A stretch of DNA of 64,000 bases from an uncultured Thermoplasmatales archaeon (GTDB lineage: Archaea; Thermoplasmatota; E2; DHVEG-1), in assembly GCA_964638175.1 (NCBI GenBank), contig CAZWZY010000004.1, forward strand, positions 12,926 through 76,925, in the 5' to 3' direction. Numbering within the stretch: the stretch's first letter is position 1; every line of letters starts with the position of its first letter. The translations under genes were made by a program, and so were the position numbers. Shown piece after piece: positions 9,370-29,567 of the stretch. Below the pieces are notes generated by a model. The model searched no databases. It saw only the letters and a program-made list of their open reading frames with translations, and was not told the DNA's origin.

Positions 9370-9444
9370 TGCTCCCGTCGGGATTCGAACCCGAGTGGCC
9401 GGCTCGAAAGGCCGGAATGATTGGCCGGACTACACCACGGGAGC
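9370..9444 (-). tRNA. tRNA-Glu (anticodon UUC)
   Basis: The minus-strand reading GCTCCCGTGGTGTAGTCCGGCCAATCATTCCGGCCTTTCGAGCCGGCCACTCGGGTTCGAATCCCGACGGGAGCA folds as a cloverleaf. It has a 7-bp acceptor stem, a GGTTCGAATCC T-arm, and an anticodon stem CCGGC/GCCGG with loop CTTTCGA (anticodon TTC). No CCA is encoded. Coordinates are within a few nt. Confidence 0.85.
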
Positions 9445-9519
9445 AAATAGCCAAGGTAAGTGCCAAGAATACCAAATACTTATTAAAAGTTTGTTGGTAA
9501 AAGTTACCCAGGCTTTTTT

Positions 9520-10383
9520 ATGATCATGTTAGACTTCAAGGGATATATGATTAAAATAATAAGAAAAATATTTAAATCATATATCTCCTTATGTTTTTCA
9601 ATCAATGGGGGAACAAACCAATTGAAACATTATTATTCGACATATCATTCTTCCGTTAGAGCAAAGATTGTTGGAGCAATACTAATAGCAATGGGTATAG
9701 TGTTCTTTATCAATCCTACCTCACTTAATGTCAAGATTGGCTTTGCATCAACACTCATTGGAATCTTTGCGATTCTTATGATAACAAAAAATAGCGTCCC
9801 CGAGACAATCAGCGATGATCAGATTAAAGGGAATATACATGCAGTAAAACAAATACTCGAAAAACTACACCTCGAAGGAAATGCTGTTTTTTTACCAAAA
9901 ACAGCAATACTTTCAGAAGAACGAATTCTAATTCCTCCAAACAACACGGACCTCATACAGATTCCTGATATAACTGCTGATGATGTTTTTTTAACGAGGG
10001 CGAGCGGGAAGAATATGGGGATATCAATGCCTCCCTCTGGTCTAAAATTATTGAAGGAAATTGAAAAAGAGGCTAATTTTGAGAACACAGAAGCAAAAGA
10101 TATCGAAGACAAATTACAGAAATTTGTAGGAATTGATCTAATCACCTCACTGTCATTTACAAAACATAACAATGGCTGGATATTGGAATTTAAAAAACCC
10201 TACTATTGCCCCAATGATGAAAATCTTTGTAAACGATATCCCTGTCCAACCTGTAGTGCCATTCTTACTGCAATCACTCGAACGTCAGATGGATCACAGA
10301 GTAAATTGTGGATAAAAGATATCAAAAACAATGGAGAAAAAATGACATTTTATCTCCATTTTATCAAAAAAAGAACTAAATAG
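9520..10383 (+). CDS. Hypothetical membrane protein
   Basis: The 287-aa ORF has an N-terminal TM pair (IVGAILIAMGIVFFINPTS..LIGIFAILMI) followed by a soluble domain with paired Cys (CPNDENLCKRYPCPTC). No recognisable family. Confidence 0.4.
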   Translation: MIMLDFKGYMIKIIRKIFKSYISLCFSINGGTNQLKHYYSTYHSSVRAKIVGAILIAMGIVFFINPTSLNVKIGFASTLIGIFAILMITKNSVPETISDDQIKGNIHAVKQILEKLHLEGNAVFLPKTAILSEERILIPPNNTDLIQIPDITADDVFLTRASGKNMGISMPPSGLKLLKEIEKEANFENTEAKDIEDKLQKFVGIDLITSLSFTKHNNGWILEFKKPYYCPNDENLCKRYPCPTCSAILTAITRTSDGSQSKLWIKDIKNNGEKMTFYLHFIKKRTK

Positions 10384-10394
10384 GGGGATATTAC

Positions 10395-10646
10395 TTGTTG
10401 ATGGCTGAAAAAATAACGTGGTTTATTGCAGCATGGATTGTAGCTATGATCTTCATTGCAGGAGATGCAGATATCGAGGTACTTATTATACTGACATTTA
10501 TTGGTCTACTCATCGCAAAAGAGTTTACGGATCGCTTTACTACTGTCCAGCTTAAGCATCGGATAAATATATTTGTTGGTGTGTTTTTTATCATTTTTGT
10601 TGTTGCTGTTGTAAAAAAAACGCTCACTTTTGTTAACTTGAGTTGA
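10395..10646 (+). CDS. Small hypothetical membrane protein (83 aa)
   Basis: The ORF predicts three hydrophobic helices. It sits 11 nt after the preceding gene and 4 nt before the next. Confidence 0.3.
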   Translation: MLMAEKITWFIAAWIVAMIFIAGDADIEVLIILTFIGLLIAKEFTDRFTTVQLKHRINIFVGVFFIIFVVAVVKKTLTFVNLS

Positions 10647-10650
10647 GGCT

Positions 10651-11622
10651 ATGAAACTTTCCTTCCCACGATACCCAGCTGATATCATTTTGTGTGTCTT
10701 GTTGAGTTTCTTATTAATCCCCTTGTCATTCATAGATGTGGGGGAGCTACTGCACGTCATTCTAGGACTGCCCTTTGTGATATTCATACCAGGATATGTG
10801 CTTGTTTTTGCGCTTTTCCCCACTAGAAAGTCAGAAAAGGGGATCGATACTGTAGAACGAATTGCATTAAGCATCGGTCTCTCATTAGTAATCGTAGCTC
10901 TTATTGGAGTGGGACTTAATTACACGCCCTTTGATATACAACAATCCTCAAGTGGTTTTTGCCTTTTTTTCTTTATAATTAGTGTTGGAGCCGTTGCAAT
11001 CTATAGATGGATAAAGGCAGCCTCAGACGAGAGATTTTTCCTGTCTATTCACTTGTCATTGACAACACCTAAACATAATGTTGATAAGGTACTTCTTATT
11101 ATGTTAGTTATAGTAATAGCGCTTACCATCGTTACTTTTGCATATGTTGCAATTACTCCAAAGTCGGCTGAAACCTATACTGAATTTTATTTACTGGGCT
11201 CAGATGGTACTTTATCAGACTATCCCCAAAACTTATATGCTGGTGAAAATGCGACGGTGACTGTTGGAATTACCAATCATGAACATCGGCCTGTTGATTA
11301 CACTATTGAAATCTGGATCCTTAACCAAACAATCTCTTACGAGGGGTTAAAAAATACAACGATATATCATAATGCATGGTTCTTACGCAAAATCAATATC
11401 ACTTTGCCCTATGAATCCAAAGACACAGAAATGCCATGGACTCCGCAGTGGCTGTATAACTATACGTTTAATATCACAAAAAAAGGAGAGTTTAAAGTGC
11501 TGTTTCTTCTTTTTACTGCACCAACTCAAATGTATGTGCGTTATGAAGATTACACAAGCATAATTGAACAAAACATTAACAATGCGTATGAAGAATTGCA
11601 CCTAAACGTGGGCATTCTCTAA
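10651..11622 (+). CDS. Hypothetical membrane protein (N-terminal polytopic region plus extracellular N-glycosylation-sequon-rich domain; possibly DUF1616-like)
   Basis: The 323-aa product has about 5 TM helices followed by a soluble region with many N-x-S/T sequons (NATVTV, NQTIS, NTTIY, NITLP, NYTFNITK). Confidence 0.45.
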   Translation: MKLSFPRYPADIILCVLLSFLLIPLSFIDVGELLHVILGLPFVIFIPGYVLVFALFPTRKSEKGIDTVERIALSIGLSLVIVALIGVGLNYTPFDIQQSSSGFCLFFFIISVGAVAIYRWIKAASDERFFLSIHLSLTTPKHNVDKVLLIMLVIVIALTIVTFAYVAITPKSAETYTEFYLLGSDGTLSDYPQNLYAGENATVTVGITNHEHRPVDYTIEIWILNQTISYEGLKNTTIYHNAWFLRKINITLPYESKDTEMPWTPQWLYNYTFNITKKGEFKVLFLLFTAPTQMYVRYEDYTSIIEQNINNAYEELHLNVGIL

Positions 11623-11638
11623 TTTTTCTTGATATGTT

Positions 11639-12025
11639 GTGAAAGCAATGCCTGGATTTATCCCTCATTTGATGGCCGGATGTGCCATGTTTATCATTGG
11701 TAGATATTACTTTAGAGACTATTTTGATGGCAGTGACAAAATAAAAGAACGTCTGTTTCTTGCAGTTGTATGCATACTATTTAGTTTCATCCCCGATATC
11801 TTTTTAATAGTATATTATTCAACCCACCTTGTTTCGTTTGAAACTGTTCTGCCCTGTCATGAACTTTCCCATGTGCTATGGGGGCCAATTGCTATTGCTT
11901 CCCTCCTTATTATTAAATATGGAATACAAACAAAGAGGGAACCAATATGGCTTATGGGTTTTTGGTCAATTGTTATTCATATGATAATGGATGTGCTAGT
12001 GCAGGAAAGTGGCATATGGTTCTAA
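11639..12025 (+). CDS. Hypothetical small polytopic membrane protein
   Basis: The 128-aa product predicts four hydrophobic helices and lies co-directional with the upstream membrane genes. Confidence 0.4.
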   Translation: MKAMPGFIPHLMAGCAMFIIGRYYFRDYFDGSDKIKERLFLAVVCILFSFIPDIFLIVYYSTHLVSFETVLPCHELSHVLWGPIAIASLLIIKYGIQTKREPIWLMGFWSIVIHMIMDVLVQESGIWF

Positions 12026-12099: not shown

Positions 12100-13077
12100 T
12101 TGAAAAAAAATGTCATATCTCTTGTTAAATTGCCCGATTCAATACTTTCCAAAGTATATTTGAAATTATTTCAGGAGAAGAGTTCTCTTAGCACCTTTCT
12201 TTTCCATGGATTATTTCGTGATGAAAAAGAGCGTTCGCCGAATCTTGTTGATCCGCAACCATGGATTACAGTAGAACAATTCCACCAGTTTGTAGAATAT
12301 TACATAGATCATGGCTACATATTCGTATCACCAGACGACGTTTTATCAGGTTTAAAAGATCATAATAGCTATATTATGATAACATTTGACGATGGCTATT
12401 ATAACAACGTTCATGCGTTGCCAGTTTTACAAAAATATGATATCCCTGCCATCTTTTTTATTTCTACCAATCACGTGATATATAACAAAGGATTCTGGTG
12501 GGACGTTTTGTACAGAGAACGAAAAAAAGCAGGAGGATCAACAAAAGAAATTGTCCGTGAGCAAAACGAATTAAAAACAAAGACTGCCGAAGCCATTGAA
12601 GCATATCTTCAGTTAACATTTGGAGAACGATCCCTGGAACCTCATGGAGATATTGATCGACCTTTTACACCTCACGAACTTCAAGAATTTTCTAGAGAGA
12701 ACAACGTCTTTCTTGGCAATCACACCAGCGATCATGCCATTCTTACCAACTATTGTTCTGATGCTATAAAAGCACAAATATGTAGTGCTCAGGATACTCT
12801 TAGTTCAATTACTGGAAGGACTCCTCTGGCTATTTCGTATCCAAACGGAAATTATTCCGATAGGATTATTAAGATATCGCGAGAGGCGGGAATTGAACTA
12901 GGGATCGCTATAGGATGCAGAAAAAATTACCTGCCATTTACCGATAAAAATGTAGATAATATGCGTCTTAATAGATTTGATATAACGGGATGTGATAATA
13001 TCCTTGCACAATGTGAGTTATTCAGATCAGATGTTCTGCTATATCCTTTGATTTTGAATGCATTAAAAAGAGTATAG
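12100..13077 (+). CDS. Polysaccharide deacetylase (NodB-homology, carbohydrate esterase family 4)
   Basis: The product carries the NodB motifs ITFDDGYYNN (Asp-Asp metal/catalytic pair), HAILT and NGNY. Translation starts at a TTG codon. Length is 325 aa. Confidence 0.8.
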   Translation: MKKNVISLVKLPDSILSKVYLKLFQEKSSLSTFLFHGLFRDEKERSPNLVDPQPWITVEQFHQFVEYYIDHGYIFVSPDDVLSGLKDHNSYIMITFDDGYYNNVHALPVLQKYDIPAIFFISTNHVIYNKGFWWDVLYRERKKAGGSTKEIVREQNELKTKTAEAIEAYLQLTFGERSLEPHGDIDRPFTPHELQEFSRENNVFLGNHTSDHAILTNYCSDAIKAQICSAQDTLSSITGRTPLAISYPNGNYSDRIIKISREAGIELGIAIGCRKNYLPFTDKNVDNMRLNRFDITGCDNILAQCELFRSDVLLYPLILNALKRV

Positions 13078-13117: not shown

Positions 13118-13468
13118 TTATTCTGATTTGTTGACAATAAGAGCAATGGCAACAGCGGTATCTTCAGAGTGAGACAAGCTTATTTTTACATCGAAGTCGT
13201 CTGTGTTCACAATTGTAACAAAAGGAACTCCATTTTTGTTGTTTGCTATCTCGATCTGCTTTGGTAGTAGCTTGATACCGTAGCAAGAGAATGCTTTGAT
13301 AACTGCTTCTTTTCCAGCAAATCGGACTGCATAATGTTGGTAGGAATGTGCCTTGCTTTCGCAATAAGTGATTTCACGTTCTGTGAATATCTTGCTTAGA
13401 ATAGCTTTTTTTGAAGCGATATCCCTCTGGAATCGAGAGAGCGCCACACAGTCTATGCCGACTTCCAT
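13118..13468 (-). CDS. acpS: Holo-ACP synthase (AcpS-type 4'-phosphopantetheinyl transferase)
   Basis: The 116-aa product begins MEVGIDCVALSRFQ (a GIDxVxxxR start) and contains FAGKEAVIKA. Size and motifs are typical of AcpS. Confidence 0.75.
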   Translation of the reverse strand: MEVGIDCVALSRFQRDIASKKAILSKIFTEREITYCESKAHSYQHYAVRFAGKEAVIKAFSCYGIKLLPKQIEIANNKNGVPFVTIVNTDDFDVKISLSHSEDTAVAIALIVNKSE

Positions 13469-13506: not shown

Positions 13507-14556
13507 TTATACATCGCTATCTCCTGTGAAAAAATGCCAGTTGTTTTTATCTAAGAGATACGATTCTAATGAAAGATTTGTGTTATATAGCGCTACTATG
13601 GCATCATCCTCTTTTGTCATAAAGAAATTAAATTCTTTTAACTTCTTTTGAAATGATTCGTTTCCAAGATAACGAATAACAATGGCTCCCATTCCCTTTG
13701 CTTTGATATGTCGTATAAACTCTGTTAACAACACTGTCGGTACTTCCTCCGAGAATTTAAATAACATATCCACAATGTGACAGATATTTTCCTTTATATG
13801 ATAAACGACATATCCTGCAAGTTCTTTATTCTCGCCCATAAGACAAAAGATATCATACTCTTGTATAGATGGATACTTATATCTCCAGTTGAGAAACTGT
13901 GCAGTTCGCTCTCCAATGATAGTAAATTGTTTTGATGTTTCTTGCCAGAACGTATCAAATCTCTCGTCAAAATATTCTGGCATCTCTATGGTATATCTAT
14001 CATTTCTTTTAGAGTAGTGCTCTTTTGAGATGCTGTTGGCGACAACGTCTGCCATCGTTGAAACTATCCTGTTTTGAAGGATTGGAGGCAGATATTCTTT
14101 TGGCACCTTTTCTGTCTTTAATAACTTTATATATCGCTTAAATTTTCCAATTTCTACGTATCCTATTCGTAAAAAAAATGTTCGTGAAAGTTCATTTGGC
14201 ACTCCATAGATAAAGCTAAATCCAGCATCTCCTACTCTTGATAAAATTTCCTCTTGTAATCTGAGTGCTAGGCCAAATCCTCGATGTTTTTTATCTACAG
14301 CAAAATCTCCAGCTATTGCCGCATCCGTTGATTTACCATTCACAAACCATCTTCTTGGAAAAAGAGCTGCTGAACCAGTCACTGTATGAGAAGATTCATA
14401 TTTCGCCAACCAACAGGAAGCATTTCCGTAGGGACACTGTACATAGTTCCAGTCATATCTTTGTGACGATGCTACGTCTAGATTTCTCTGCAGTATGGGA
14501 AGAATATCTTTTTTGTCACGTTGTACATCAGCTTTAATGATGGTATAACTATTCAT
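13507..14556 (-). CDS. FemAB-like / GNAT-fold acyltransferase
   Basis: The 349-aa product has a GNAT acyl-CoA/ACP binding signature (HRGFGLALRL) in a roughly 340-aa two-lobed architecture. That arrangement is typical of FemAB-related proteins found in exopolysaccharide loci. Confidence 0.55.
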   Translation of the reverse strand: MNSYTIIKADVQRDKKDILPILQRNLDVASSQRYDWNYVQCPYGNASCWLAKYESSHTVTGSAALFPRRWFVNGKSTDAAIAGDFAVDKKHRGFGLALRLQEEILSRVGDAGFSFIYGVPNELSRTFFLRIGYVEIGKFKRYIKLLKTEKVPKEYLPPILQNRIVSTMADVVANSISKEHYSKRNDRYTIEMPEYFDERFDTFWQETSKQFTIIGERTAQFLNWRYKYPSIQEYDIFCLMGENKELAGYVVYHIKENICHIVDMLFKFSEEVPTVLLTEFIRHIKAKGMGAIVIRYLGNESFQKKLKEFNFFMTKEDDAIVALYNTNLSLESYLLDKNNWHFFTGDSDV

Positions 14557-15548
14557 TTTATTCCTAACTTCTGTTGCACAAAGGCAACTGTTTTTTGGTC
14601 TTCGATTTTGTTAATTCTCTCTAATGCTGATTCTCGGTCCAAGTGTCCCTCTCGAACCAAGTTTGCTAATTCAAATGCATAGGGATGAAAATGAAATTGT
14701 TTCTTATGTACGACGTTTGCAAATGAATTCAGCAGGCAATTGGTGGAGTTCGCATCCGTGTCTTGAGGTGCTTTCCACCCGTATTGACATATTTCTCGGT
14801 ATACTCTTTTTTCGTCGTACTCTAAAAACGCCAGGGGATGGATATTATATGGAAAGCGATACGAACCATCAAAATGCTTTTCCTCAAGGAAATAGGGGCT
14901 TATCTCATCTCCAACGATTTGATGCAGTGGTTGAAAGATTGCTTTTTGCATCATCTTTATCAGTTGAGCGTTGTTTTTCATGATTGATGAAGTAATGGGT
15001 GCTTGGCCCGGCGACCAGCCAAATGCAATAAAGGGAATATCTTTTTCGAGCGCGGTACGAAGGGCGCTGAATTTTACGATTCCCATGCAAGATGTACAAA
15101 TCGTACTCGACCGTTCAATGGTTTTTACGGCATATGGATTGTTGGTTGAACATTCGTAAAAAATTTTTTTAAGGACATCAAAACGGGGTTTGAGAGTGAT
15201 ATGATCGATTCCCAAATTTTCCATCACCGTTCTGATATTCTTGAACGCCTGTTCTGAAAGAAATCCATTATCAAAAGTAATAGCAAGAATGTTTAAGCCA
15301 TATGTTTCCTTCAATTTGATGGTGGTGTAAGTACTATCTTTGCCACCACTATAACACATTAGAGCATCGTAACTACTTTTTCCTTTGTACTCTTTAATCA
15401 ACTCCTCAAATTTTTGTTTGCACACGGTCTTTTTATCTTTTAGATGATGTATGCCCTTAAATTCAAGACAGAAGTTACAGATCCCATTCTCATTAATTCT
15501 GATTCCTGGAAAGGTTTCAGGTAATATGCATTTAAGACAGCGTTTCAT
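14553..15548 (-). CDS. N-acetyl sugar amidotransferase (WbuX/PseA-like PP-loop ATP pyrophosphatase with N-terminal Cys4 zinc ribbon)
   Basis: The internal Met (MKRCLKCILPETFPGIRINENGICNFC) has a G-rich RBS directly upstream. The PP-loop CYSGGKDSTY is present. The longer ORF-track start would overlap the upstream gene by 44 nt. Confidence 0.7.
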   Translation of the reverse strand: MKRCLKCILPETFPGIRINENGICNFCLEFKGIHHLKDKKTVCKQKFEELIKEYKGKSSYDALMCYSGGKDSTYTTIKLKETYGLNILAITFDNGFLSEQAFKNIRTVMENLGIDHITLKPRFDVLKKIFYECSTNNPYAVKTIERSSTICTSCMGIVKFSALRTALEKDIPFIAFGWSPGQAPITSSIMKNNAQLIKMMQKAIFQPLHQIVGDEISPYFLEEKHFDGSYRFPYNIHPLAFLEYDEKRVYREICQYGWKAPQDTDANSTNCLLNSFANVVHKKQFHFHPYAFELANLVREGHLDRESALERINKIEDQKTVAFVQQKLGIK

Positions 15549-16536
15549 TTCCCCCCTCCGTATTTTCCTGATCAAGTGTTGGAGGTAGTTTTCTTAAGTG
15601 TTTTGTAGCAGTATATTTGCTTGCGAAATCCCTGAATGCCCGTTGTACTTGTTGCTCCTCTAAATTCATTGCTTTGCACACTTCAGACACTTCGATATTG
15701 TTTTCCCACGCGTACAACAAAGGGTCAAGGAGATCATAGGGGATACGAAAATAGAATTCCTCATCACTTACCTGAAAACTAAAAGTGTCTGGACTTGGTG
15801 ATCTTTCTATGATCTCTGGGATCACGCCCGTATAATTCGAGAGCTGGTACACCTGTGTTTTATACAGGTGAGATAGAGGCTCGATATCAACTCCGCCATC
15901 TCCATACTTAACAAAAAAGCCCTGTAATAATTCAGTTTTGTTGGTTGTACCGCATACAAGATAATTTTTCATTTCTGCGTAATAATATAAATACATCATC
16001 CGTGTTCGCTGTTTGGTATCCGTAGCAGCGACAATACCGTTAAGTGCTTTTTTATTAAGTCGAAATGACCTTACGTTACCTTTGTTATCCTCTATTATTA
16101 ATGTGAAAACGTTGTATGCACCCTTGGATAACAAATCAGAAGGCAAGGTAATTTTTACTCTATGTTTGATTGAGTAATCTGGATAAATTTTTTTAATAAA
16201 CTCATCTCTTTTCTTATATGTTCCAACTTTCTCAAGAACCGTAGTTATGTCAACGATCTCTATTTCGATTCCTAATTTTTCTGCTTGTTTTTTGGCATAC
16301 ATAATACTTACTGGGTTAGATTCTTTTTCTGGAAGTAGTACACCAAATACCCTATCCTTTCCAAGTGCCCGCACACATAACTCAGCGGCAAGAGCAGAGT
16401 CGATGCCACCACTCAACCCTATTACTATGCCATCTCGCTTCATTGAGTCTGTTTGTTGTTTGATGAATGAACAAACCTGATCAATCTCCTTTTTGCAATC
16501 AAGTTTTAGAATCTCTTTTTGAAACGTCATTATCAT
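15532..16536 (-). CDS. NAD+ synthetase-like PP-loop amidotransferase (NadE family)
   Basis: The product has GIVIGLSGGIDSALAAEL near its N-terminus, the SGGxDS PP-loop. NadE-like motifs follow (KTELLQGFFVKYGDGGVDIEPL). Length is 334 aa. Confidence 0.6.
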   Translation of the reverse strand: MIMTFQKEILKLDCKKEIDQVCSFIKQQTDSMKRDGIVIGLSGGIDSALAAELCVRALGKDRVFGVLLPEKESNPVSIMYAKKQAEKLGIEIEIVDITTVLEKVGTYKKRDEFIKKIYPDYSIKHRVKITLPSDLLSKGAYNVFTLIIEDNKGNVRSFRLNKKALNGIVAATDTKQRTRMMYLYYYAEMKNYLVCGTTNKTELLQGFFVKYGDGGVDIEPLSHLYKTQVYQLSNYTGVIPEIIERSPSPDTFSFQVSDEEFYFRIPYDLLDPLLYAWENNIEVSEVCKAMNLEEQQVQRAFRDFASKYTATKHLRKLPPTLDQENTEGGNETLS

Positions 16537-18110: not shown

Positions 18111-18390
18111 TCTTCTTTGTTATATAGGTAGTTATTTTATTCAAAGAATCCAAGTTATCGGGAACTAGTTCATCGTCTTCTACAGTAATATTAAACGTCT
18201 CCTCGATGTAACTTACCAGCTCCAATACTCCTGTCGAATCGATAATCCCTTTTTCCATGAACGAATCATTTTTATTAAGGACTGTTGAACCATTGCCTAG
18301 TCGAAAGTTATCGCGGATAAATAGTTGTAATTTTCCCCTAATTTCGTCTTCGTCTCTTTTGTGTACTTTTATCATTACGAATCCTCTCAC
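18091..18390 (-). CDS. Acyl carrier protein
   Basis: The 99-aa product has the IIDSTGVLELVSYIEETF segment, which contains the conserved DS(T/L) phosphopantetheine-attachment Ser. It overlaps the ligase gene by 20 nt. Confidence 0.7.
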   Translation of the reverse strand: MRGFVMIKVHKRDEDEIRGKLQLFIRDNFRLGNGSTVLNKNDSFMEKGIIDSTGVLELVSYIEETFNITVEDDELVPDNLDSLNKITTYITKKIGHVGK

Positions 18391-21434: not shown

Positions 21435-21907
21435 TACTTGTTACAGTTGGCATGCATTCACAAGGATTTGATCGATTGATTAAAAAGATGGATGAACTTG
21501 CTGGAAAAACAAATGAAGAGGTAATAATGCAAATTGGTTCATCGTCTTATATGCCAAAAAATGCAAAATACTTTTTTTTTAAAGATTCACAAGACATGCA
21601 AGCATTGATTAAAAAAGCAAGGCTTGTGGTTTGTCACGGTGGTGCTGGAACAATACTTACAGTAATGGATGAGAATGTCCCTCTTGTTGCAGTTCCCCGG
21701 TTAAAGAAGTACCATGAGGCAATCGATGACCATCAAATCGAACTTGTTGAGTATCTGGCAAAAGATGGAACAATAACGGCAGTGTATGATTTTGAAGCAC
21801 TATCGAGCGTCCTAGATGAAACCTTCAATACTTCTTCTGTTACTATAAAAAAAGACAACACGTTAGCGGGAGCAATCAAGGTGTATCTTACTACACTGAC
21901 GGGATGA
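21431..21907 (+). CDS. Alg13-like glycosyltransferase (GT28 C-terminal domain; catalytic half of the split transferase)
   Basis: The internal Met begins MILVTVGMHSQGFDRLIKKMDEL. The product also has VVCHGGAGTIL, matching the Alg13/MurG C-terminal nucleotide-sugar domain. Confidence 0.7.
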   Translation: MILVTVGMHSQGFDRLIKKMDELAGKTNEEVIMQIGSSSYMPKNAKYFFFKDSQDMQALIKKARLVVCHGGAGTILTVMDENVPLVAVPRLKKYHEAIDDHQIELVEYLAKDGTITAVYDFEALSSVLDETFNTSSVTIKKDNTLAGAIKVYLTTLTG

Positions 21908-21923
21908 GTTCATTGGTGATGCT

Positions 21924-23063: not shown

Positions 23064-23075
23064 AGGGGAAAGTGT

Positions 23076-24227
23076 ATGAATATTATGTGGATTAACAAGA
23101 TATCAAGCAAGGAATATTGGAGGACTACTCAGGTTGGTCTTTCTAATAGCTTGAGAAAAAGAAAACATCACGTAACCCTAGTGATGGCAAGAGAGATCGG
23201 AGAAAAAAAACCCGCAGATAAAGAAACCATCTATCTTCCGACAATACCGTATCCTGTTTTGTCTGGACTTTTTTTTGGTTTATTACTCTTCTTCTCCTTT
23301 CCCTTTTTCATTCGAAATCAGAAGCCAGACATAATTATCATCGATGGAACATCGGTATGGCTTCCCTTTACATTAACGCTAAAACTGTTCCATGTTCCCC
23401 TAGTAATGGATATCAGAACATTGCCGATAAAAAAGAAGAGCCCCCCACTCTTTGATATTTGCCTCTATTTTAGTAAATATGTAACAAATGCATTAACGAC
23501 TATCACTCCCGAGTTAGCAGCCGTACTGAGAACAAAATATGATCTTGATGGTCAAAAAATTGGCATTTGGTCATCGGGAGTTTCTCTCGAAGATTTTACG
23601 GTATCGTGCAGCAAGACCGCTGCCACTCCTTATCATCCAGATAAGTTTGTGATACTTCACCACGGATCCTATTCGTCTACACGAGGGGTAAAAAATTTAA
23701 TAATGTCAATAGGACAGATACAAGATGCTTTAAGAAAAAGAATTGAATTGATACTCATTGGAGTGCATGAAAAAGATCAAAAAGAATTTTTACAACTATG
23801 TAATGAAGAAGGCATTACAGAACAAGTCACAATCATGTCACGAGTTCCATATCGAGACATACCTTCATATATTCAATCGTCAGATATTGGTGTTATTCCT
23901 CTCCCCCCAGATAGGGACTACTGGAAAGTCAGCGTACCATTAAAAACTCTCGAATACATGGCAATGGAGAAACCAATAATAGCGACTGCCATTCCTTTTC
24001 ATCAAAGGATTTTTGAACAAGGGAACTGTGGCGTACTCCTTGATACTAATAATCCAAAAGCCTTGGTTCATGCAATTACGTATTTGTACCGACACCGAGA
24101 AGAGTTAACCAAAATGGGAAGAGTAGGCAGAGAACTTGTTTCTAATCATTATACGTGGGATTGCATTGCATCCGAATTCGAACAATTCATAAAAACCGTC
24201 TTGGTGGATTTTCAAGATGAATCGTAA
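23076..24227 (+). CDS. Glycosyltransferase family 4 (with N-terminal hydrophobic segment)
   Basis: The 383-aa product has a GT-B C-terminal region (VIPLPPD...TLEYMAMEKPIIATAIP). One TM helix is predicted near residue 60. Confidence 0.7.
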   Translation: MNIMWINKISSKEYWRTTQVGLSNSLRKRKHHVTLVMAREIGEKKPADKETIYLPTIPYPVLSGLFFGLLLFFSFPFFIRNQKPDIIIIDGTSVWLPFTLTLKLFHVPLVMDIRTLPIKKKSPPLFDICLYFSKYVTNALTTITPELAAVLRTKYDLDGQKIGIWSSGVSLEDFTVSCSKTAATPYHPDKFVILHHGSYSSTRGVKNLIMSIGQIQDALRKRIELILIGVHEKDQKEFLQLCNEEGITEQVTIMSRVPYRDIPSYIQSSDIGVIPLPPDRDYWKVSVPLKTLEYMAMEKPIIATAIPFHQRIFEQGNCGVLLDTNNPKALVHAITYLYRHREELTKMGRVGRELVSNHYTWDCIASEFEQFIKTVLVDFQDES

Positions 24228-25845
24228 ACAGATTAGCTACTGTGGCGGCATATGCTTTTTCGTTGGGTTACTCCTGATATTAATCTCCTGGCATTTTACA
24301 TATCCCATATCAATGGCAGAATCGGAGGAGGTTCTTTTCACTCAGTTTTTCCCTTCAATCTGGCCAGGAATTGTCATATCATTGATAGGTTTATTTTTAG
24401 CAGGATATTATTCTGAACGGAAGGGCATCAAGGCGATTTGCGCCTCGCTGTTTCCGCTCCTCCTCTATTCTTATGTGTATTATTTCTCTTATGTACCAAC
24501 GTCAGATGGTGGTGTTGCTAAAGCAATGTTTGAAATTTTTCATCAAACAGGCATCAATCCTACTATCGAGTCATACTTTCACTATCCCATTTATTTTACC
24601 TTGAATGAGATGGCAGGACAATTCCTTGGACTCGGTGCTGATGGTCTTGCAGCCATTTTTTTCACTATTTTTGGCAGTCTCATTGCAGTGTATCTCTATC
24701 TATTCTTCTCTAAGCATACACGACGTATTTCACATGGTGTTGCCTTTCTTGTTGTACCTCTTTATTTTCTCGCGATATTTACGTATCTTAATTACCAATG
24801 GGTTCCTCAAACACTAGCCCTTGTTTTATTTATACTTTTATTGATTCTCTTCGATCGAAAAGAAAATGTATACAAATCTTTGAGCATCGTTGTATTTACT
24901 GCTTTGGTTTTTACTCATGTGTTCATCCCTGTAATCTTTCTACTTTTTTTAGGATTGTCTTCATTTAAAAAGAAAGAATTTAGAAACAGTTTTCTTCTCA
25001 CGACCTCAATTTATGTTTTAGTTTTGATGTATTATGCAACCTTCTATCTCCCTGGGATTATAGATGCATTTAGACAAACGATTTATGGATTCGGAGAGGA
25101 ATATGCAATTAATTTATCGAGATCTTTTATGGAGCCAGAAGGATCAATAGATCAACTTATTAGTATGGTAAATAGAATGAGGATTCCCTTAATTTGGATC
25201 GTGTTATCCGTAGGTCTTTTCTTTTCATTCATTAAAAGAAAACTTGATTATCAAGTAATTCTTTTGGGGATGACAGGAGGATTCTATTTTGGCGTTGGTT
25301 TATTCTATTCTGTCCTTGGAACTCGTGCATTACAAGTGTTGTGCATCTCCTTGGTTGCGGGCGTAGGATTCTTTATCACTCGGTGGAAAAAACCAACGCT
25401 TGTGTTCATTTCCATTCTTCTCATCCTCTCCGTCTCTGGACCAATGAGGAGTGCCTACGATACGTATCTCTTTCAACAGGGGGAAGAAGAGGATGCTTGT
25501 AACTTTTTAGCCAGCACTCTACCCACAGAACAACCAACGAAATTGGGAATGGGCGGAATCAACTTTGGTTATTTCACTAAGAAGCACGAGTATCTATGTA
25601 GAGAGGTAAACACTAGTTCGGTCTGGGTTGTAGTCCCAGAAAATCCCGAATTTTATACTGTGTTCAATGTTTCAATGGGGGAACATATGGGCATACTGTA
25701 CAATCCTTCTCTGGAAAAAGAAATTGCTTCATTTGGGCTGGAGATGACCAGGATTGATGAAATTAAAGGTCAGATGTTGTTACATAATAAAATCTATGTC
25801 TGTGGCAAGACTTTTGTTGTTACATCACAACAAACATTAGATTAA
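24217..25845 (+). CDS. Polytopic membrane protein, candidate glycan polymerase/ligase (O-antigen polymerase-like) (hypothetical)
   Basis: The 542-aa product has at least 10 hydrophobic helices and a C-terminal soluble domain of about 120 aa. It overlaps the upstream GT4 gene by 11 nt inside the glycan locus. No motif-level identification. Confidence 0.45.
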   Translation: MNRKQISYCGGICFFVGLLLILISWHFTYPISMAESEEVLFTQFFPSIWPGIVISLIGLFLAGYYSERKGIKAICASLFPLLLYSYVYYFSYVPTSDGGVAKAMFEIFHQTGINPTIESYFHYPIYFTLNEMAGQFLGLGADGLAAIFFTIFGSLIAVYLYLFFSKHTRRISHGVAFLVVPLYFLAIFTYLNYQWVPQTLALVLFILLLILFDRKENVYKSLSIVVFTALVFTHVFIPVIFLLFLGLSSFKKKEFRNSFLLTTSIYVLVLMYYATFYLPGIIDAFRQTIYGFGEEYAINLSRSFMEPEGSIDQLISMVNRMRIPLIWIVLSVGLFFSFIKRKLDYQVILLGMTGGFYFGVGLFYSVLGTRALQVLCISLVAGVGFFITRWKKPTLVFISILLILSVSGPMRSAYDTYLFQQGEEEDACNFLASTLPTEQPTKLGMGGINFGYFTKKHEYLCREVNTSSVWVVVPENPEFYTVFNVSMGEHMGILYNPSLEKEIASFGLEMTRIDEIKGQMLLHNKIYVCGKTFVVTSQQTLD

Positions 25846-25946: not shown

Positions 25947-26705
25947 ATGATTGTTGACTATATCAAACGACGGTGGATAAAAAGAAGCTCGAATGCATAT
26001 ATTTCCCATCTGAGAAAAAAAGGCATAAGGATTGGAGAGAACGTTCATTTTTATGGGAATTTACAGTTAGTGTCAATTGATGTTACGCGCCCCTCGTTGG
26101 TTAAGATCAGCAATAATGTTGAGATTGTAGCTCCCTTTGATCTTAGCACTCATGGGTTTGAATGGGCAGTCTTTAGAGAAAAGTACCACGAAATTGTTGC
26201 TTCCTCTGGAAAAGTAACCATTGGTAATAACGTATATATCGGAGCGAATGTTGTCATTTTAAAAGGTTCTTGCATTGGAGATAATGTTATCATCGGTGCA
26301 AAATCTCTCGTTAACAAAGACATTCCCTCCAACTGTGTTGCGGCAGGAGTACCTGCTAAAAAAATCATGGACCTTGATGACTATTTCAAAAAACGGAAAA
26401 GAGAGTGTCTCGATGAGGCAAAAGAATATGCCTTGTCTATCTATGAGGTCTTTGGAAGGTTGCCCGTAGAAGAAGATTTCTTTGAATTTTTTCATCTCTT
26501 TCTTGAAAGGGATCAACAGTCCATTTCTGCCTTTAATGATAAATTGATATTGAAAATGAAACGAGAAAAAAGAACCGGTATGAGTGTACAGAGTCAGTTG
26601 AGTAGTGCATTCGAACAATTTTTAATGTCACAACCGCAATATGACTCCTTTGATGATTTTCTAGCAGATGCTGGAATTCCTCTCAAAAAAAGAAAACGTA
26701 AGTGA
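25947..26705 (+). CDS. Hexapeptide-repeat (left-handed beta-helix) acetyltransferase
   Basis: The product shows hexapeptide repeats in IGNNVYIGANVVILKGSCIGDNVIIGAKSLVNKDIPSNCVAAGVPAK. A C-terminal extension of about 90 aa follows. Confidence 0.75.
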   Translation: MIVDYIKRRWIKRSSNAYISHLRKKGIRIGENVHFYGNLQLVSIDVTRPSLVKISNNVEIVAPFDLSTHGFEWAVFREKYHEIVASSGKVTIGNNVYIGANVVILKGSCIGDNVIIGAKSLVNKDIPSNCVAAGVPAKKIMDLDDYFKKRKRECLDEAKEYALSIYEVFGRLPVEEDFFEFFHLFLERDQQSISAFNDKLILKMKREKRTGMSVQSQLSSAFEQFLMSQPQYDSFDDFLADAGIPLKKRKRK

Positions 26706-26749
26706 TACTGGAAAACAGGTGACCGTGTCTTCGTGAACAGATTGTTCTT

Positions 26750-28354
26750 CTATTTCTTTCTTATTAATTTGTTGATTAATGGTATTTTTATACCCGCTTT
26801 TTGTTCTATCAACTCAACGATTATGAGATCTTCTTCTCCAAAAAGTTTAAAGAGAACGAGAAAGACAAAGAACAATAGATACGAACATATGACGATCATG
26901 ATTTGACCAAACATGGTAAATGTGATGGGCAAATGGTGTATTACTACATAAGTTAGGACCATCATGATTACAAATATAGCAAGCATTTTAGCATACAATT
27001 GTTTGATTGGCTGCATCTTTGATATTGTATATAGATAGGTTAGTTCAACTACACTAAGAAGTATCAATGAGCCTCCTGTTGCCAGAGCAGCACCTGAAAT
27101 GCCATAGAGCGGTATCAAGGACAAATTTAATGTAATATTTACTATAGCGGCACTGGCAACGATATACATAAGTTGTCTTGTTTTTCCTAGCATCACTATT
27201 GATCCACTGATGGGGCCTAGACATATACGTATCGCATAGGCAATGAAAAGGAGGAACAGAGGAAACATCGCTTCCGCATAGTTATTGCCAAAAAGAAGAG
27301 AGACTACTACTGTTGGTTGAAGCAACACTAGCATAATAAGCGGAGATGTTATTAAAAAAATCCATTTAGTACTGGTTTGATAAAGCTCTTTTAATTCTAA
27401 CTTTTTATTTGCCCCATAGAGTTTCGTGCCGACTGGCTGATAGATAAACATGATGCTGATCAGGAAGATATTAAGATATGAGGAAATGGTGGCAGCAGCA
27501 TTGTATATCCCCACGTGGTACTCTCCCATGGAGAAACCAATCATGAATTTATCTGTGGCCTGAAGAATGAACCAAGACATACTACTAAATACCAGCGGGA
27601 TTGAAAAAAGTAGCAACTCTTTTTTAACAGAACCGCCTGATCGGTTAACTTTTATCTCTTGAGGAATTCTTTTCTTGAAATAAAGAACAGCTATGAAAAA
27701 CACAAAGAGGGTATTGGCGGTGATTGCCCAGAAGATATAATCAATTGTAAGTCCAAGTACAATTACAGGGACAATAAACAGCAGTTTCCCCCCATTCAAT
27801 AGGAGGTGAGAAAAAATCACATTTTCTTTCGCTCGATCAAATCCTCTAAAGATAATCACAATAATGCCAATAAGAATCCAAAAAGGTAAGCCAAAAGCAA
27901 GGATTTTCAACGCATGGCTTAGTTCATAATTATGGAACATATTTAAACTAATACAATCGGCGGATACAAAAAGAAAGATGCTAGCAAAAATGCCCGAAAT
28001 CAGTATACATTCTAATGAGGAGAGTATTGTTTCCTTCACTCGGCTATAGTCTTTTTTACTGCGATAAAATGCAATGTTTCTAGAGCAGCCGTCGTCTAAA
28101 CCTAGAAATGATATCTGCACTAAAAAAAGAAAAGTTGTCATTGCTAATGCATATATGCCAAATTCAGCAGGAGAATAGGATCGTGCGATGATAATAGGGA
28201 ATATTGCTGCTAAAATCGACCCTATGATTGTGCCAATGAGTATGATGCCTGTCCCCTTTGCAACAAGCTGTAGTGAATCATTAACAAGTTTTTTATCATA
28301 CGTCTGATCAGAGGTAGACGAATCTTTTCTCCTCTGTTTCATTTTCACGTTCAT
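26750..28354 (-). CDS. Wzx-type flippase (MOP/polysaccharide biosynthesis protein family)
   Basis: The 534-aa product has about 12-14 TM helices in the typical Wzx/PST layout. It sits next to the glycosyltransferases. Confidence 0.7.
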   Translation of the reverse strand: MNVKMKQRRKDSSTSDQTYDKKLVNDSLQLVAKGTGIILIGTIIGSILAAIFPIIIARSYSPAEFGIYALAMTTFLFLVQISFLGLDDGCSRNIAFYRSKKDYSRVKETILSSLECILISGIFASIFLFVSADCISLNMFHNYELSHALKILAFGLPFWILIGIIVIIFRGFDRAKENVIFSHLLLNGGKLLFIVPVIVLGLTIDYIFWAITANTLFVFFIAVLYFKKRIPQEIKVNRSGGSVKKELLLFSIPLVFSSMSWFILQATDKFMIGFSMGEYHVGIYNAAATISSYLNIFLISIMFIYQPVGTKLYGANKKLELKELYQTSTKWIFLITSPLIMLVLLQPTVVVSLLFGNNYAEAMFPLFLLFIAYAIRICLGPISGSIVMLGKTRQLMYIVASAAIVNITLNLSLIPLYGISGAALATGGSLILLSVVELTYLYTISKMQPIKQLYAKMLAIFVIMMVLTYVVIHHLPITFTMFGQIMIVICSYLLFFVFLVLFKLFGEEDLIIVELIEQKAGIKIPLINKLIRKK

Positions 28355-28382
28355 TGTTCTCCATACTGTTACGTTTACTTTT

Positions 28383-29357
28383 TTATTTAGTCACTCGTGA
28401 CTGTTGTAGCCAGGCCATTGTCTCAGCAAGTCCCTTACTAAGGTTGACCCTAGGTTTGAAGTGTAGTTTTTCTTGTACGAGAGAAATATCTGCTTGAGAT
28501 GATAGTATATCTTCCCGTTGCTTGTCCGTATACGCCAGCTTTGTCTGTGCATTACCTGTCTTCATGATTAAGTGGGCAAGATTTGCTATTGAAACCTGCT
28601 CTCCACTTCCTATATTAAAAACCCCACTTACGTTATGAGTTGCCGCTAAAATATTAGCATTGACCACATCTGAAACAAAGATAAAATCTCTTGTTTGTTC
28701 ACCAGTACCATAAATCACAAGAGGGCGATCCCGTAATAAGTTATGCATAAATTTTGGAATGACTGCAGCATAGTCACTGAATGGATTTTGGTAGGGACCG
28801 TATACATTGAAATATCGTAAACATGCTGTTTGTAGATCGTAAAGACTACTATACAACGAACAATATTGTTCTCCTATAAGTTTACTTGTAGCATATGGAG
28901 AAATTGGATGTACTGGCATGCTTTCTTTTAGGGGTAAGTTTTCTTCCGAAGGATTTCCATAGACTGCACAAGACGAACTGAATACGATCTTGTTAATTGC
29001 GTTTTCTTTTGATGCTTGTAGCACGTTTAGCGTTCCAGTGACATTTACTTCGTTGGTAGTCAATGGATCGCGTATGCTCTGTGGTACACTAGCAATTGCT
29101 GCTAAATGAAACACGACATCGATATCACTCAATACTTTTTGTAAAAGAGTGTAGTCGGTAACACATCCCTGTATAAACTCTATCTTTTTTGTTTCTACTA
29201 GATCCTTGATGTTATGATACTTCCCAGAGGAAAGATCATCAATAACAATGACTTGGTTGTCGTGTGCTGATAATGCTCTTGCAAGATTGGACCCGATGAA
29301 TCCTGCCCCTCCAGTAATAACAATCCGCTTTCCTTTCAGTTCATTCATATGTAGCAC
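28383..29357 (-). CDS. NAD-dependent nucleotide-sugar epimerase/dehydratase (SDR family, UDP-glucose 4-epimerase-like)
   Basis: The 324-aa product has ITGGAGFIGSNLARAL (a GxxGxxG Rossmann motif) and the YATSK catalytic motif (YxxxK). Confidence 0.85.
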   Translation of the reverse strand: MLHMNELKGKRIVITGGAGFIGSNLARALSAHDNQVIVIDDLSSGKYHNIKDLVETKKIEFIQGCVTDYTLLQKVLSDIDVVFHLAAIASVPQSIRDPLTTNEVNVTGTLNVLQASKENAINKIVFSSSCAVYGNPSEENLPLKESMPVHPISPYATSKLIGEQYCSLYSSLYDLQTACLRYFNVYGPYQNPFSDYAAVIPKFMHNLLRDRPLVIYGTGEQTRDFIFVSDVVNANILAATHNVSGVFNIGSGEQVSIANLAHLIMKTGNAQTKLAYTDKQREDILSSQADISLVQEKLHFKPRVNLSKGLAETMAWLQQSRVTK

Positions 29358-29496
29358 TTAATCTAAGCTATAGAGTATTTTATTATTAAACATATTAAAT
29401 ATTTTTCTATATATAATTTTTACTGCAAACTCTGTAATAAAAGTGTATATTATCTTTTGATTTTCGCCAAACAAGAACAGCAATATTATTTTAAAA

Positions 29497-29567
29497 TAGC
29501 CCCGTCCAGATTCGAACTGGAGTCGCTGGCTCCAAAGGCCAACATGATTGACCGCTACACTACGGGG
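29497..29567 (-). tRNA. tRNA-Gln (anticodon UUG)
   Basis: The minus-strand reading GCCCCGTAGTGTAGCGGTCAATCATGTTGGCCTTTGGAGCCAGCGACTCCAGTTCGAATCTGGACGGGGC(T) has a GC-rich acceptor stem, a GTTCGAATC T-loop and an anticodon loop CTTTGGA (anticodon TTG). Coordinates are within a few nt. Confidence 0.75.

What the first reader, a model, noticed from the sequence alone, without database searches (positions are those of the whole stretch)
9370..29567. Twenty-kilobase cell-envelope glycan island bracketed by tRNA-Glu and tRNA-Gln genes
Two same-strand tRNA genes flank about 20 kb that contains only membrane proteins, the ACP/amidotransferase module, seven glycosyltransferases, a flippase, a polymerase-like membrane protein, an acetyltransferase and an epimerase. 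tRNA genes are classical integration and hypervariability boundaries. Glycan loci of this kind are typically strain-variable. I saw no integrase, but I could not do a repeat search.
Basis: inference. Interest (0 to 1): 0.55.

Follow-up and report, generated by a model that had tools for sequence, protein, structure and literature searches.

The report
Archaeal glycan cluster splitting tRNA pair
A 20-kb set of cell-surface sugar-building genes in an uncultured archaeon sits between two tRNA genes that are direct neighbours in more distant relatives, so it is probably an old insertion at a tRNA hotspot, now inherited stably and not a currently mobile island.

Summary
tRNA-Glu(UUC) (9368-9445, -) and tRNA-Gln(UUG) (29496-29570, -) exactly bracket 21 ORFs, nearly all of them glycan or envelope genes. 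The island reading is partly right.

For it:
- In five more distant relatives the two tRNAs form a tandem pair (10-340 bp apart) just upstream of cinA.
- The homologous cluster sits at tRNA-free sites in other lineages.
- One relative has an integrase reading into the orthologous tRNA-Glu.
- GC is slightly low (37.5% against 40-41%).

Against it:
- There is no integrase, no att-like repeat and no tRNA fragment.
- Genus-level relatives carry the same collinear cluster at the same site, differing only by single genes: a FemAB-like gene and an extra GT4.

The best reading is an old insertion or translocation between a tRNA pair, inherited vertically since, with module-level turnover.

- The "polymerase-like" membrane protein has a GT-C fold (PglB/STT3/ArnT-like). 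It belongs to a rare family with no Pfam or solved-structure sequence match.
- The "ACP/amidotransferase module" is a self-contained NRPS-like carrier-protein cassette, shared with bacteria at 44-70% identity.

Verdict: a new member of a known kind, of moderate interest.

The parts
9368..9445 (-). tRNA-Glu(UUC), the left boundary. Its 5' end faces the cluster, and a TATA-like CTTTTAATAAG lies about 36 nt upstream, conserved in L167.
9520..10383 (+). DUF7982-family membrane protein with a C-terminal Cys-rich motif. It is the first gene of the conserved left-end quartet.
   Evidence: Homologues carry a precomputed PF25939 hit. It is syntenic in L167, L175 and L176.
10395..10646 (+). Small two-TM protein, DUF8044-like.
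   Evidence: Orthologues in L165, L167, L175 and L176 are marked PF26161.
10651..11622 (+). DUF1616 archaeal membrane protein.
   Evidence: E = 1e-67
11639..12025 (+). YdjM-like small membrane protein (weak match).
12100..13077 (+). NodB-type (CE4) polysaccharide deacetylase with no obvious signal peptide. Proposed to de-N-acylate a lipid-linked amino sugar, as ArnD does.
   Evidence: the function is inferred
13118..13468 (-). AcpS-type 4'-phosphopantetheinyl transferase.
13507..14556 (-). 349-aa two-lobed GNAT acyltransferase. Proposed to transfer the carrier-bound acyl or aminoacyl group.
   Evidence: it is conserved in the cassette in L179 and L180
14553..15575 (-). PP-loop ATP pyrophosphatase, WbuX/QueC-like, scoring below the WbuX cut-off.
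15532..16536 (-). NadE-like PP-loop enzyme (NCBIfam PRK00876 subfamily) with an insertion relative to canonical NadE.
   Evidence: it is fused to the adenylating enzyme in P0076
16563..18110 (-). Stand-alone adenylating enzyme. Its closest solved relatives are NRPS A domains (LgrA, 288 bits). TIGR03098 scores 507 bits, below its 592-bit cut-off.
18091..18390 (-). 99-aa carrier protein (ACP/PCP) with a DS phosphopantetheine attachment motif.
18391..18794 (.). AT-rich divergent intergenic region. L167 and L164 carry a FemAB-like gene here; the window and L176 do not, and no remnant is left.
18795..19727 (+). GT2 with two C-terminal TM helices, a polyprenyl-phosphate sugar synthase type. It aligns over its full length with ArnC and over its N-terminal GT domain (residues 8-184) with Pyrococcus DPMS.
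19824..20981 (+). GT4 glycosyltransferase.
20982..21907 (+). Split Alg14-like (20982-21434) and Alg13-like (21416-21907) glycosyltransferase.
21924..23063 (+). GT4 glycosyltransferase.
23076..24227 (+). GT4 glycosyltransferase.
24217..25845 (+). 542-aa membrane protein with a GT-C fold (PglB/STT3/AftA/ArnT-like) and a C-terminal alpha/beta domain. It has no Pfam hit and no WWD motif. The family is rare.
25947..26705 (+). Hexapeptide-repeat (LbH) sugar O-acetyltransferase.
26750..28354 (-). Wzx/MOP-type lipid-linked oligosaccharide flippase.
28383..29357 (-). NAD-dependent nucleotide-sugar epimerase/dehydratase.
29496..29570 (-). tRNA-Gln(UUG), the right boundary. Its 3' end faces the cluster. 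The tRNA-Gln/cinA linkage is conserved in all informative relatives.

Best explanation
The interval is a roughly 20-kb surface-glycan biosynthesis and decoration gene cluster of an uncultured archaeon, probably a member of Thermoplasmatota.

**How it got there.** It lies between tRNA-Gln and tRNA-Glu, which ancestrally formed a tightly spaced, probably co-transcribed pair upstream of cinA. The cluster was inserted or translocated between them in the ancestor of a genus-level clade. It has been inherited vertically since. Turnover has been at the level of single modules: a FemAB-like gene and an extra GT4 are gained or lost. The GT and flippase genes have diverged faster than the flanks. Today it is not an integrase-type mobile element.

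**How it works (inferred).**
- Arm 1: the epimerase supplies a nucleotide sugar. Three GT4s and Alg13/14 build an oligosaccharide on a dolichol carrier at the cytoplasmic face. The LbH enzyme O-acetylates it, and Wzx flips it.
- Arm 2 follows the logic of Arn, Gtr and AglD/R/S. The ArnC/DPMS-like GT2 makes a Dol-P-(N-acyl)amino sugar. The NodB deacetylase frees its amine. The carrier-protein cassette re-acylates it: AcpS primes the carrier, the NRPS-A-like enzyme loads an amino or carboxylic acid, the two PP-loop enzymes amidate or otherwise modify a carboxyl or carbonyl, and the GNAT transfers the product. The GT-C-fold enzyme then moves the sugar to its acceptor on the outer face.

The priming transferase and AglB are encoded elsewhere.
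For: **Shown**
- The two tRNAs and their gene content are confirmed.
- The tRNAs form a tandem pair without the cluster in L003, L005, L084, L090 and L108, with spacers of 340, 20, 10, 13 and 16 bp. tRNA-Glu orthology is 74/75 to L084.
- The right flank (cinA, metallophosphoesterase, PHO4, PhoU) is syntenic in these relatives.
- The same cluster sits at the same tRNAs in L167 and L083. Window against L167: flank 83.0% and island-left 85.0% nucleotide identity. Window against L083: 67% across the GT genes (20688-25562); the segment from the acetyltransferase into the right flank (25947-34155) aligns at 77%. L083 has an extra GT4 and L167 an extra FemAB-like gene.
- The homologous cluster has different, tRNA-free left flanks in L175 and L176. 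In L175, FemAB and Acetyltransf_6 genes replace the carrier cassette.
- The five-gene cassette occurs in the same order in a Latescibacterota bacterium at 44-70% amino-acid identity (L179). In L180 it lies between transposase genes.
- The adenylating enzyme is fused to the NadE-like domain in P0076.
- The AF2 model of the 542-aa protein has pLDDT 93.5, and its top 25 Foldseek hits are all GT-C enzymes.
- The GT2 aligns over its full length with ArnC.
- The adenylating enzyme's best solved match is the NRPS LgrA A domain, at 288 bits against about 190 for CoA ligases.
- The tRNA-Glu is used as an integration site in a relative: the L084 integrase reads into it.
- Island GC is modestly low.

**Inferred**
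- The direction of the event (insertion rather than loss).
- All substrate and acceptor assignments.
Against: - Polarity is not proven. If the five tandem-pair lineages form one clade, a single deletion explains the data as well as a single insertion, and I could not build a species tree.
- The left flank of the tRNA pair is not syntenic between the window clade and the distant relatives. A larger rearrangement with a breakpoint at the pair therefore cannot be excluded.
- No mobility signature remains: no integrase, att repeat or IS element.
- The compositional shift is small. It starts left of tRNA-Glu, and GT and membrane genes often run AT-rich anyway.
- Every biochemical step is untested.
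- The WbuX and TIGR03098 matches are below their curated cut-offs.
- In L179 and L180 the cassette is not next to glycan genes, so its product need not be a glycan substituent.
- GT-C TM-scores are only 0.42-0.49.
Confidence: 0.6

Rival explanations
1. It is a classical integrase-mediated integrative element (provirus, integrated plasmid or ICE-like island) that entered the 3' end of tRNA-Gln and is still a discrete mobile unit.
For: - The cluster abuts the 3' end of tRNA-Gln.
- A relative has a tyrosine recombinase reading into the neighbouring tRNA-Glu.
- GC is slightly low.
- The cluster sits at different sites in other lineages.
Against: - No integrase or recombinase ORF or remnant exists in the interval.
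- There is no partial tRNA copy or direct repeat at the far end.
- No replication, conjugation or virion genes are present.
- The cluster is stably collinear in relatives of only about 77-84% DNA identity.
- No viral contig carries the adenylating enzyme.
Confidence: 0.05
2. The locus is ancestral. The cluster always lay between the two tRNAs, and the tandem arrangement in other lineages results from its deletion. The bracket then says nothing about acquisition.
For: - The cluster is syntenic in all genus-level relatives.
- L167 shows equal divergence of the flank and the island's left half.
- No mobility signature is present.
Against: - Five loci show spacers of only 10-20 bp (340 bp in one), typical of a tRNA operon rather than a deletion scar.
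- The homologous cluster occupies unrelated, tRNA-free sites in L175 and L176.
- The carrier cassette is independently mobile.
- GC is lower than in the flanks.
Confidence: 0.15
3. The bracket results from a genome rearrangement (inversion or translocation) with a breakpoint inside the tRNA pair. That rearrangement would have brought a pre-existing chromosomal glycan region, possibly together with tRNA-Glu and the left flank, next to tRNA-Gln. It would not be a discrete 20-kb insertion.
For: - Everything left of the tRNA pair is non-syntenic between the window clade and the distant relatives, while the right side is conserved.
- Glycan-type genes (MGS_GT-like, sulfotransferase-like) and low GC continue left of tRNA-Glu.
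Against: - tRNA-Glu is orthologous to the tandem copy, 74/75 identical to L084.
- The left-flank genes (YjeF, NAC, HEAT, HTH) are housekeeping-like and 76-96% conserved with L167.
- The tools cannot separate this from a simple insertion.
Confidence: 0.2

Closest known systems
tRNA-associated genomic islands and variable surface-glycan loci (bacterial O-antigen and capsule loci; archaeal agl clusters, which vary between Haloferax species, PMC5867893)
   Same: - A compact cluster of GTs, a flippase and sugar-modifying enzymes.
- It is bounded by conserved landmarks, here tRNAs.
- GC is slightly low.
- It is absent from that site in more distant relatives.
- Whole modules are swapped between lineages.
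   Different: - There is no integrase, att repeat or IS element.
- The content is not replaced among the closest relatives.
- The insert splits a tandem tRNA pair rather than duplicating a tRNA 3' end.
- No aglB or priming transferase lies in the cluster.
Three-component polyprenyl-phosphate sugar decoration systems: ArnC/ArnD/ArnE-F/ArnT (lipid A Ara4N), GtrA/B/C, and Haloferax AglD/AglR/AglS (own knowledge of these pathways)
   Same: - A GT2 with C-terminal TM helices that aligns over its full length with ArnC.
- A NodB-family deacylase, as ArnD is.
- A flippase.
- A GT-C-fold transferase that matches ArnT and PglB structurally.
   Different: - Sequence identity is negligible (10-15% to GT-C structures).
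- The flippase is Wzx-type, not ArnE/F or GtrA.
- An extra carrier-protein acylation cassette is present.
- The acceptor is unknown.
DltA/DltC D-alanylation and stand-alone NRPS A-T pairs; the exosortase-A-associated ligase family TIGR03098
   Same: An adenylating enzyme, a small carrier protein and a dedicated PPTase lie in an envelope-polymer locus. The best NCBIfam hit is TIGR03098, and the best solved-structure hit is an NRPS A domain.
   Different: - No DltB (MBOAT) or DltD is present.
- There is no PLP decarboxylase or exosortase context.
- The TIGR03098 score is below its cut-off.
- Two PP-loop ATPases and a 349-aa GNAT accompany it.
WbuX / AglX N-acetyl-sugar amidotransferases (acetamidino sugar formation)
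   Same: A PP-loop fold with an N-terminal Cys-rich segment. TIGR03573 is the best NCBIfam hit, and a weak solved-structure hit goes to 8wex.
   Different: - The score of 147 is below the cut-off of 203.
- There are no HisH/HisF-like partner genes.
- Homologues occur inside ACP/KS/NRPS clusters and as NRPS domains.

Membership tests
Integrase-type tRNA-targeted integrative element or genomic island | It lies adjacent to a tRNA gene. | tested here: met
   tRNA-Glu and tRNA-Gln flank it.
Integrase-type tRNA-targeted integrative element or genomic island | An integrase or recombinase gene, or its remnant, lies at one end. | tested here: not met
   No Phage_integrase, rve or DDE hit occurs in any interval ORF. 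tblastn with the L084 integrase finds only the antisense tRNA.
Integrase-type tRNA-targeted integrative element or genomic island | Direct att repeats, meaning a partial tRNA 3' copy at the distal end. | tested here: not met
   Local alignment, k-mer search and the repeat finder recover only generic tRNA-Glu/tRNA-Gln similarity.
Integrase-type tRNA-targeted integrative element or genomic island | Presence/absence polymorphism at the site among relatives. | tested here: inconclusive
   The cluster is absent, leaving a tandem tRNA pair, in five relatives with cinA 63-69% identical. It is present and collinear in all genus-level relatives seen.
Integrase-type tRNA-targeted integrative element or genomic island | Deviant base composition with sharp boundaries. 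| tested here: inconclusive
   GC is 37.5% against 40-41%, and gene-wise p = 4e-6. The shift starts at about 7.4 kb, and tetranucleotide distance is unremarkable.
Wzx/Wzy-dependent surface-polysaccharide locus | Cytoplasmic glycosyltransferases plus a Wzx flippase. | tested here: met
   GT2, three GT4s, Alg13/14 and Polysacc_synt/MatE are present.
Wzx/Wzy-dependent surface-polysaccharide locus | A Wzy-type polymerase. | tested here: not met
   The 542-aa protein has no Wzy or O-antigen-ligase Pfam hit. Only 4 of 64 family members give faint EpsG hits, and the fold is GT-C.
Wzx/Wzy-dependent surface-polysaccharide locus | A priming phosphoglycosyltransferase in the locus. | tested here: not met
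   No Glycos_transf_4 (PF00953) or Bac_transf hit occurs in any ORF of the window.
Archaeal AglB-dependent N-glycosylation (agl) cluster | AglB/STT3 oligosaccharyltransferase with a WWDYG motif. | tested here: not met
   No STT3 Pfam hit occurs in the window. The GT-C protein has no WWD motif (sequence) and no sequence match in the PDB. AglB may lie elsewhere in the genome.
GT-C superfamily glycosyltransferase (the 542-aa protein) | A multi-TM GT-C fold with an extracytoplasmic domain. | tested here: met
   AF2 gives pLDDT 93.5 and pTM 0.93. The top 25 Foldseek PDB hits are all GT-C enzymes (PglB, STT3, AftA, ArnT, AglB, DPY19), with E down to 8e-6 and TM 0.42-0.49.
GT-C superfamily glycosyltransferase (the 542-aa protein) | A catalytic acidic residue in the first external loop. 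| tested here: inconclusive
   D97 is invariant in 64 homologues and lies in the loop before helix 98-111. No residue-level superposition was done.
Exosortase-A-associated acyl-CoA ligase (TIGR03098) | A score above the curated cut-off, and an adjacent PLP decarboxylase (TIGR03099). | tested here: not met
   The score is 507 bits, below 592. No decarboxylase is in the cluster.
WbuX/AglX N-acetyl sugar amidotransferase (TIGR03573) | A score above the cut-off, and HisH/HisF-like partner genes. | tested here: not met
   The score is 147 bits, below 203. No glutamine amidotransferase or cyclase genes are in the cluster.
Dlt-type D-alanylation system | DltB (MBOAT) and DltD alongside the ligase and carrier protein. 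| tested here: not met
   No MBOAT or DltD hit occurs. The carrier protein hits DltC only weakly, at 26 bits against a cut-off of 68.

The most novel reading that the evidence does not exclude
The left half of the cluster may encode an undescribed archaeal pathway. In it a lipid-linked amino sugar would pass through four steps:
- it is made by an ArnC-like GT2;
- it is de-N-acetylated by a NodB enzyme;
- it is re-acylated with an amino-acid-derived, amidated group, built on a free-standing NRPS-like A-T pair by two PP-loop enzymes and a GNAT;
- it is delivered outside the cell by a new GT-C family.

The carrier-protein cassette would be a cross-domain mobile unit, found in bacteria and archaea and flanked by transposases. 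It would be functionally interchangeable with the aa-tRNA-dependent FemAB-type modules that occupy the same slot in sister clusters.
Probability: 0.2. Interest if true: 0.7.

Novelty: new member of a known kind. Interest (0 to 1): 0.4.

Why it matters
Surface glycans set virus susceptibility, mating and environmental tolerance in archaea, and how their gene clusters move is poorly documented outside haloarchaea.

This locus gives a clean example in an uncultured, Thermoplasmatota-like lineage of a whole glycan cluster lodged inside a tRNA pair. A relative shows that the same pair is an integrase target. The example shows that such a cluster can lose every mobility mark and become a stable, modularly evolving chromosomal locus.

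Two by-products could be tested:
- A rare GT-C family with a confident model and no Pfam or solved-structure sequence match.
- A phosphopantetheine carrier-protein cassette in archaea, where ACP systems are uncommon (own knowledge). It is shared with bacteria at up to 70% identity.

Tried and rejected
- **att or partial-tRNA repeats.** I searched by local alignment of the two boundaries, by 11-mer search of both tRNA regions across the window, and with the repeat finder. Only the generic tRNA-Glu/tRNA-Gln similarity and chance AT-rich matches came out.
- **Integrase remnants.** tblastn with the L084 integrase found nothing but the antisense tRNA.
- **Viral origin.** No IMG/VR contig carries the adenylating enzyme or a relative of the L084 integrase.
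- **A remnant of the FemAB-like gene in the 18391-18794 gap.** None was found.
- **The Wzy-polymerase reading of the 542-aa protein.** I rejected it. There is no Pfam hit and only 4 of 64 relatives give faint EpsG hits. The single-sequence AF2 model was useless at pLDDT 44. The alignment-based model is GT-C.
- **Sequence search of that family against the PDB.** No match.
- **MS-channel homologues at 73-76% identity (L169-L174).** These lie in unrelated contexts and were uninformative about the boundary.
- **Literature searches for the cassette.** Two searches returned nothing, and DUF1616 appears only as an N-glycosylated Haloferax protein.
- **Naming the source organism.** Cluster look-up gave no names.
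- **The full contig of L083.** I could not retrieve it beyond 10-kb flanks, so no single relative was seen across the whole cluster.

Full report
**Observation**

ARAGORN finds only two tRNA genes in the window: tRNA-Glu(UUC) at 9368-9445 and tRNA-Gln(UUG) at 29496-29570, both on the minus strand. Rfam confirms both and finds no other RNA family.

Twenty-one ORFs lie between them. Pfam, NCBIfam and precomputed homologue annotations give, from left to right:
- a quartet of membrane proteins: DUF7982, DUF8044-like, DUF1616 and YdjM-like;
- a NodB-type deacetylase;
- a minus-strand block of AcpS, a 349-aa GNAT, a WbuX/QueC-like PP-loop enzyme, a NadE-like PP-loop enzyme, an AMP-binding adenylating enzyme and a 99-aa carrier protein;
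- a plus-strand block of GT2, GT4, Alg14, Alg13, GT4, GT4, a 542-aa multi-TM protein and an LbH acetyltransferase;
- on the minus strand, a Wzx flippase and an NAD-dependent epimerase.

The flanks are mostly housekeeping genes. On the left are YjeF, NAC, a HEAT-repeat protein, an HTH regulator and an MS-channel-like protein. On the right are cinA, a metallophosphoesterase, PHO4, PhoU, Pst, ELP3, FolD, ValRS and ribosomal proteins.

**Who it is**

The best named relatives are Thermoplasmatota MAGs. Flank proteins are 64-69% identical to "Thermoplasmatota archaeon" MAGs, and the adenylating enzyme is 66-68% identical to Methanomassiliicoccales and Thermoplasmatales MAG proteins. The window's own proteins occur on a 91.7-kb NCBI contig and in Logan assemblies of SRR15425350/51.

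**Is it an island?**

The decisive comparison is the cinA-anchored set of loci.
- In L003, L005, L084, L090 and L108 (cinA 63-69% identical), tRNA-Glu and tRNA-Gln lie next to each other on the same strand directly upstream of cinA. The spacers are 340, 20, 10, 13 and 16 bp.
- The right flank is syntenic where the contigs reach it (L003, L004, L084 and L089).
- The L084 tRNA-Glu is 74/75 identical to the window's.

So the 20 kb separates a pair that is otherwise a tight tRNA tandem.

The homologous cluster exists in other lineages with unrelated left flanks and no tRNA. L176 has an M28 peptidase and an ACT-domain protein there, and L175 has a KaiC-like ATPase and an HTH protein.

In L084 a 481-aa tyrosine recombinase ORF ends inside the antisense of tRNA-Glu. 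This tRNA pair is therefore an integration target in the lineage.

Island genes have lower GC (0.376 against 0.412, p = 4e-6) and lower GC3 (0.334 against 0.375) than the rest of the window.

**Against a classical island**

- No integrase, transposase or other mobility gene lies in the interval.
- There is no partial tRNA copy or att-like direct repeat.
- The low-GC zone already begins near 7.4 kb.
- Most importantly, the closest relatives keep the cluster in place.

L167 aligns to the window at 83.0% over the left flank and 85.0% over the island's left half. It has tRNA-Glu in the same position. L083 (cinA 94%) has tRNA-Gln followed by the same epimerase, Wzx, acetyltransferase, GT-C, GT4, GT4, Alg13, Alg14 and GT4 order.

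The differences are single genes:
- an extra GT4 in L083 (5123-6274);
- a FemAB-like gene between the carrier protein and the GT2 in L167 and L164. It is absent without trace from the window and from L176.

In L083 the GT, flippase and GT-C proteins are 54-69% identical, against about 66-94% for most flank proteins. That means faster divergence, not replacement.

I conclude that this was an old insertion or translocation into the tRNA pair, inherited vertically since.

**What the genes do**

The 542-aa "polymerase-like" protein has no Pfam hit. It has only 168 representatives among 1.84 billion clusters and no PDB sequence match. With a 64-sequence alignment, AF2 gives pLDDT 93.5 and pTM 0.93. 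The top 25 Foldseek PDB hits are all GT-C enzymes: PglB, STT3, AftA, ArnT, AglB and DPY19. It lacks a WWD motif, so it is not an AglB orthologue. D97, H234 and R370 are invariant in the family.

The GT2 has two C-terminal TM helices. It aligns over its full length with ArnC and over its N-terminal GT domain (residues 8-184) with Pyrococcus DPMS.

Together with the NodB deacetylase and a flippase, this reproduces the logic of Arn (ArnC, ArnD, ArnT), Gtr and AglD/R/S systems. I infer a Dol-P-amino-sugar decoration arm running beside a GT4 and Alg13/14 oligosaccharide arm.

**The carrier-protein cassette**

- The adenylating enzyme is closest to NRPS A domains (LgrA at 288 bits; CoA ligases at about 190).
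- It scores below the TIGR03098 cut-off.
- It is fused to the NadE-like protein in P0076.
- The five genes (carrier, adenylating enzyme, NadE-like, PP-loop, GNAT) recur in the same order in a Latescibacterota genome at 44-70% identity (L179).
- In L180 the same five genes lie between transposase genes, away from glycan genes.
- A three-gene core (carrier protein, adenylating enzyme and NadE-like enzyme) lies beside an epimerase and a deacetylase fragment in a Thermoplasmatales chromosome (L178).
- The PP-loop protein's plasmid homologues sit in ACP/KS clusters or inside NRPSs, which argues against a WbuX-type nucleotide-sugar role.
- In L175 the cassette's slot is occupied by FemAB and Acetyltransf_6 genes.

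I therefore propose, by inference, that the slot encodes interchangeable amine-acylating modules acting on the deacetylated sugar.

**Verdict**

It is a new member of a known kind: a surface-glycan cluster at a tRNA hotspot. It has two side-findings worth testing, a rare GT-C family and a cross-domain carrier-protein cassette. The function of the DUF7982, DUF8044, DUF1616 and YdjM quartet remains unexplained.

Noticed in passing
window 40413-41555 (+): A 380-aa ORF with GC 29% and GC3 0.21, and no Pfam hit, lies between an ARMT1-like gene and ELP3. It is the strongest compositional outlier in the window, more deviant than the glycan cluster.
   Followed up: no
L084:1167-2612 (+), overlapping tRNA-Glu at L084:2561-2637 (-): A 481-aa Phage_integrase-family ORF has its last ~17 codons encoded antisense to the 3' part of the orthologous tRNA-Glu. 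This is an archaeal-style integrase and tRNA att arrangement in a relative. No related viral contig was found.
   Followed up: partly
L179:9688-14624 (Latescibacterota CP070677.1) and L180:9730-14612: The same five-gene cassette (carrier protein, adenylating enzyme, NadE-like, PP-loop, GNAT) occurs in a bacterium at 44-70% amino-acid identity. In L180 it lies between Transposase_mut, IS1595 and DDE_Tnp_1 genes, away from glycan genes. It is a cross-domain mobile unit of unknown product.
   Followed up: partly
P0076 (846 aa, JGI metagenome): A natural fusion of the adenylating enzyme with the NadE-like PP-loop domain implies that the two act on the same substrate.
   Followed up: partly
L181 (Bacillus thuringiensis HD1002 plasmid NZ_CP009349.1, 320-340 kb): A 38%-identical homologue of the WbuX/QueC-like protein, annotated as 7-cyano-7-deazaguanine synthase, sits in a cluster with ACPs, two adenylate-forming enzymes, KS, FabZ, FabG, a thioesterase and AsnB. 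Roseovarius and Streptomyces plasmids carry the domain under features annotated as NRPS or condensation-domain proteins.
   Followed up: partly
window 57425-59260 (-) and 60324-63686 (-): A Hint/PT-HINT plus PKD protein and a 1120-aa right-handed beta-helix/NosD surface protein are present. They are possible secreted glycoprotein substrates, and a similar beta-helix/PKD protein lies next to the cassette core in L178.
   Followed up: no
window 2325-3503 (-) and 7451-8137 (-): An MGS_GT-like glycosyltransferase and a weak sulfotransferase-like ORF lie left of tRNA-Glu, with GC about 0.38. Glycan-type genes and low GC thus extend beyond the tRNA bracket.
   Followed up: no
L005:8181-9866 (-): A class I Glu/Gln-type aminoacyl-tRNA synthetase lies between the tRNA-Glu/tRNA-Gln/tRNA-Gln array and cinA in one relative.
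   Followed up: no
window 9520-12025 (+): The DUF7982, DUF8044-like, DUF1616 and YdjM-like quartet always travels with the NodB deacetylase in six loci, and its function is unknown. The only literature hit for DUF1616 is an N-glycosylated Haloferax membrane protein.
   Followed up: partly
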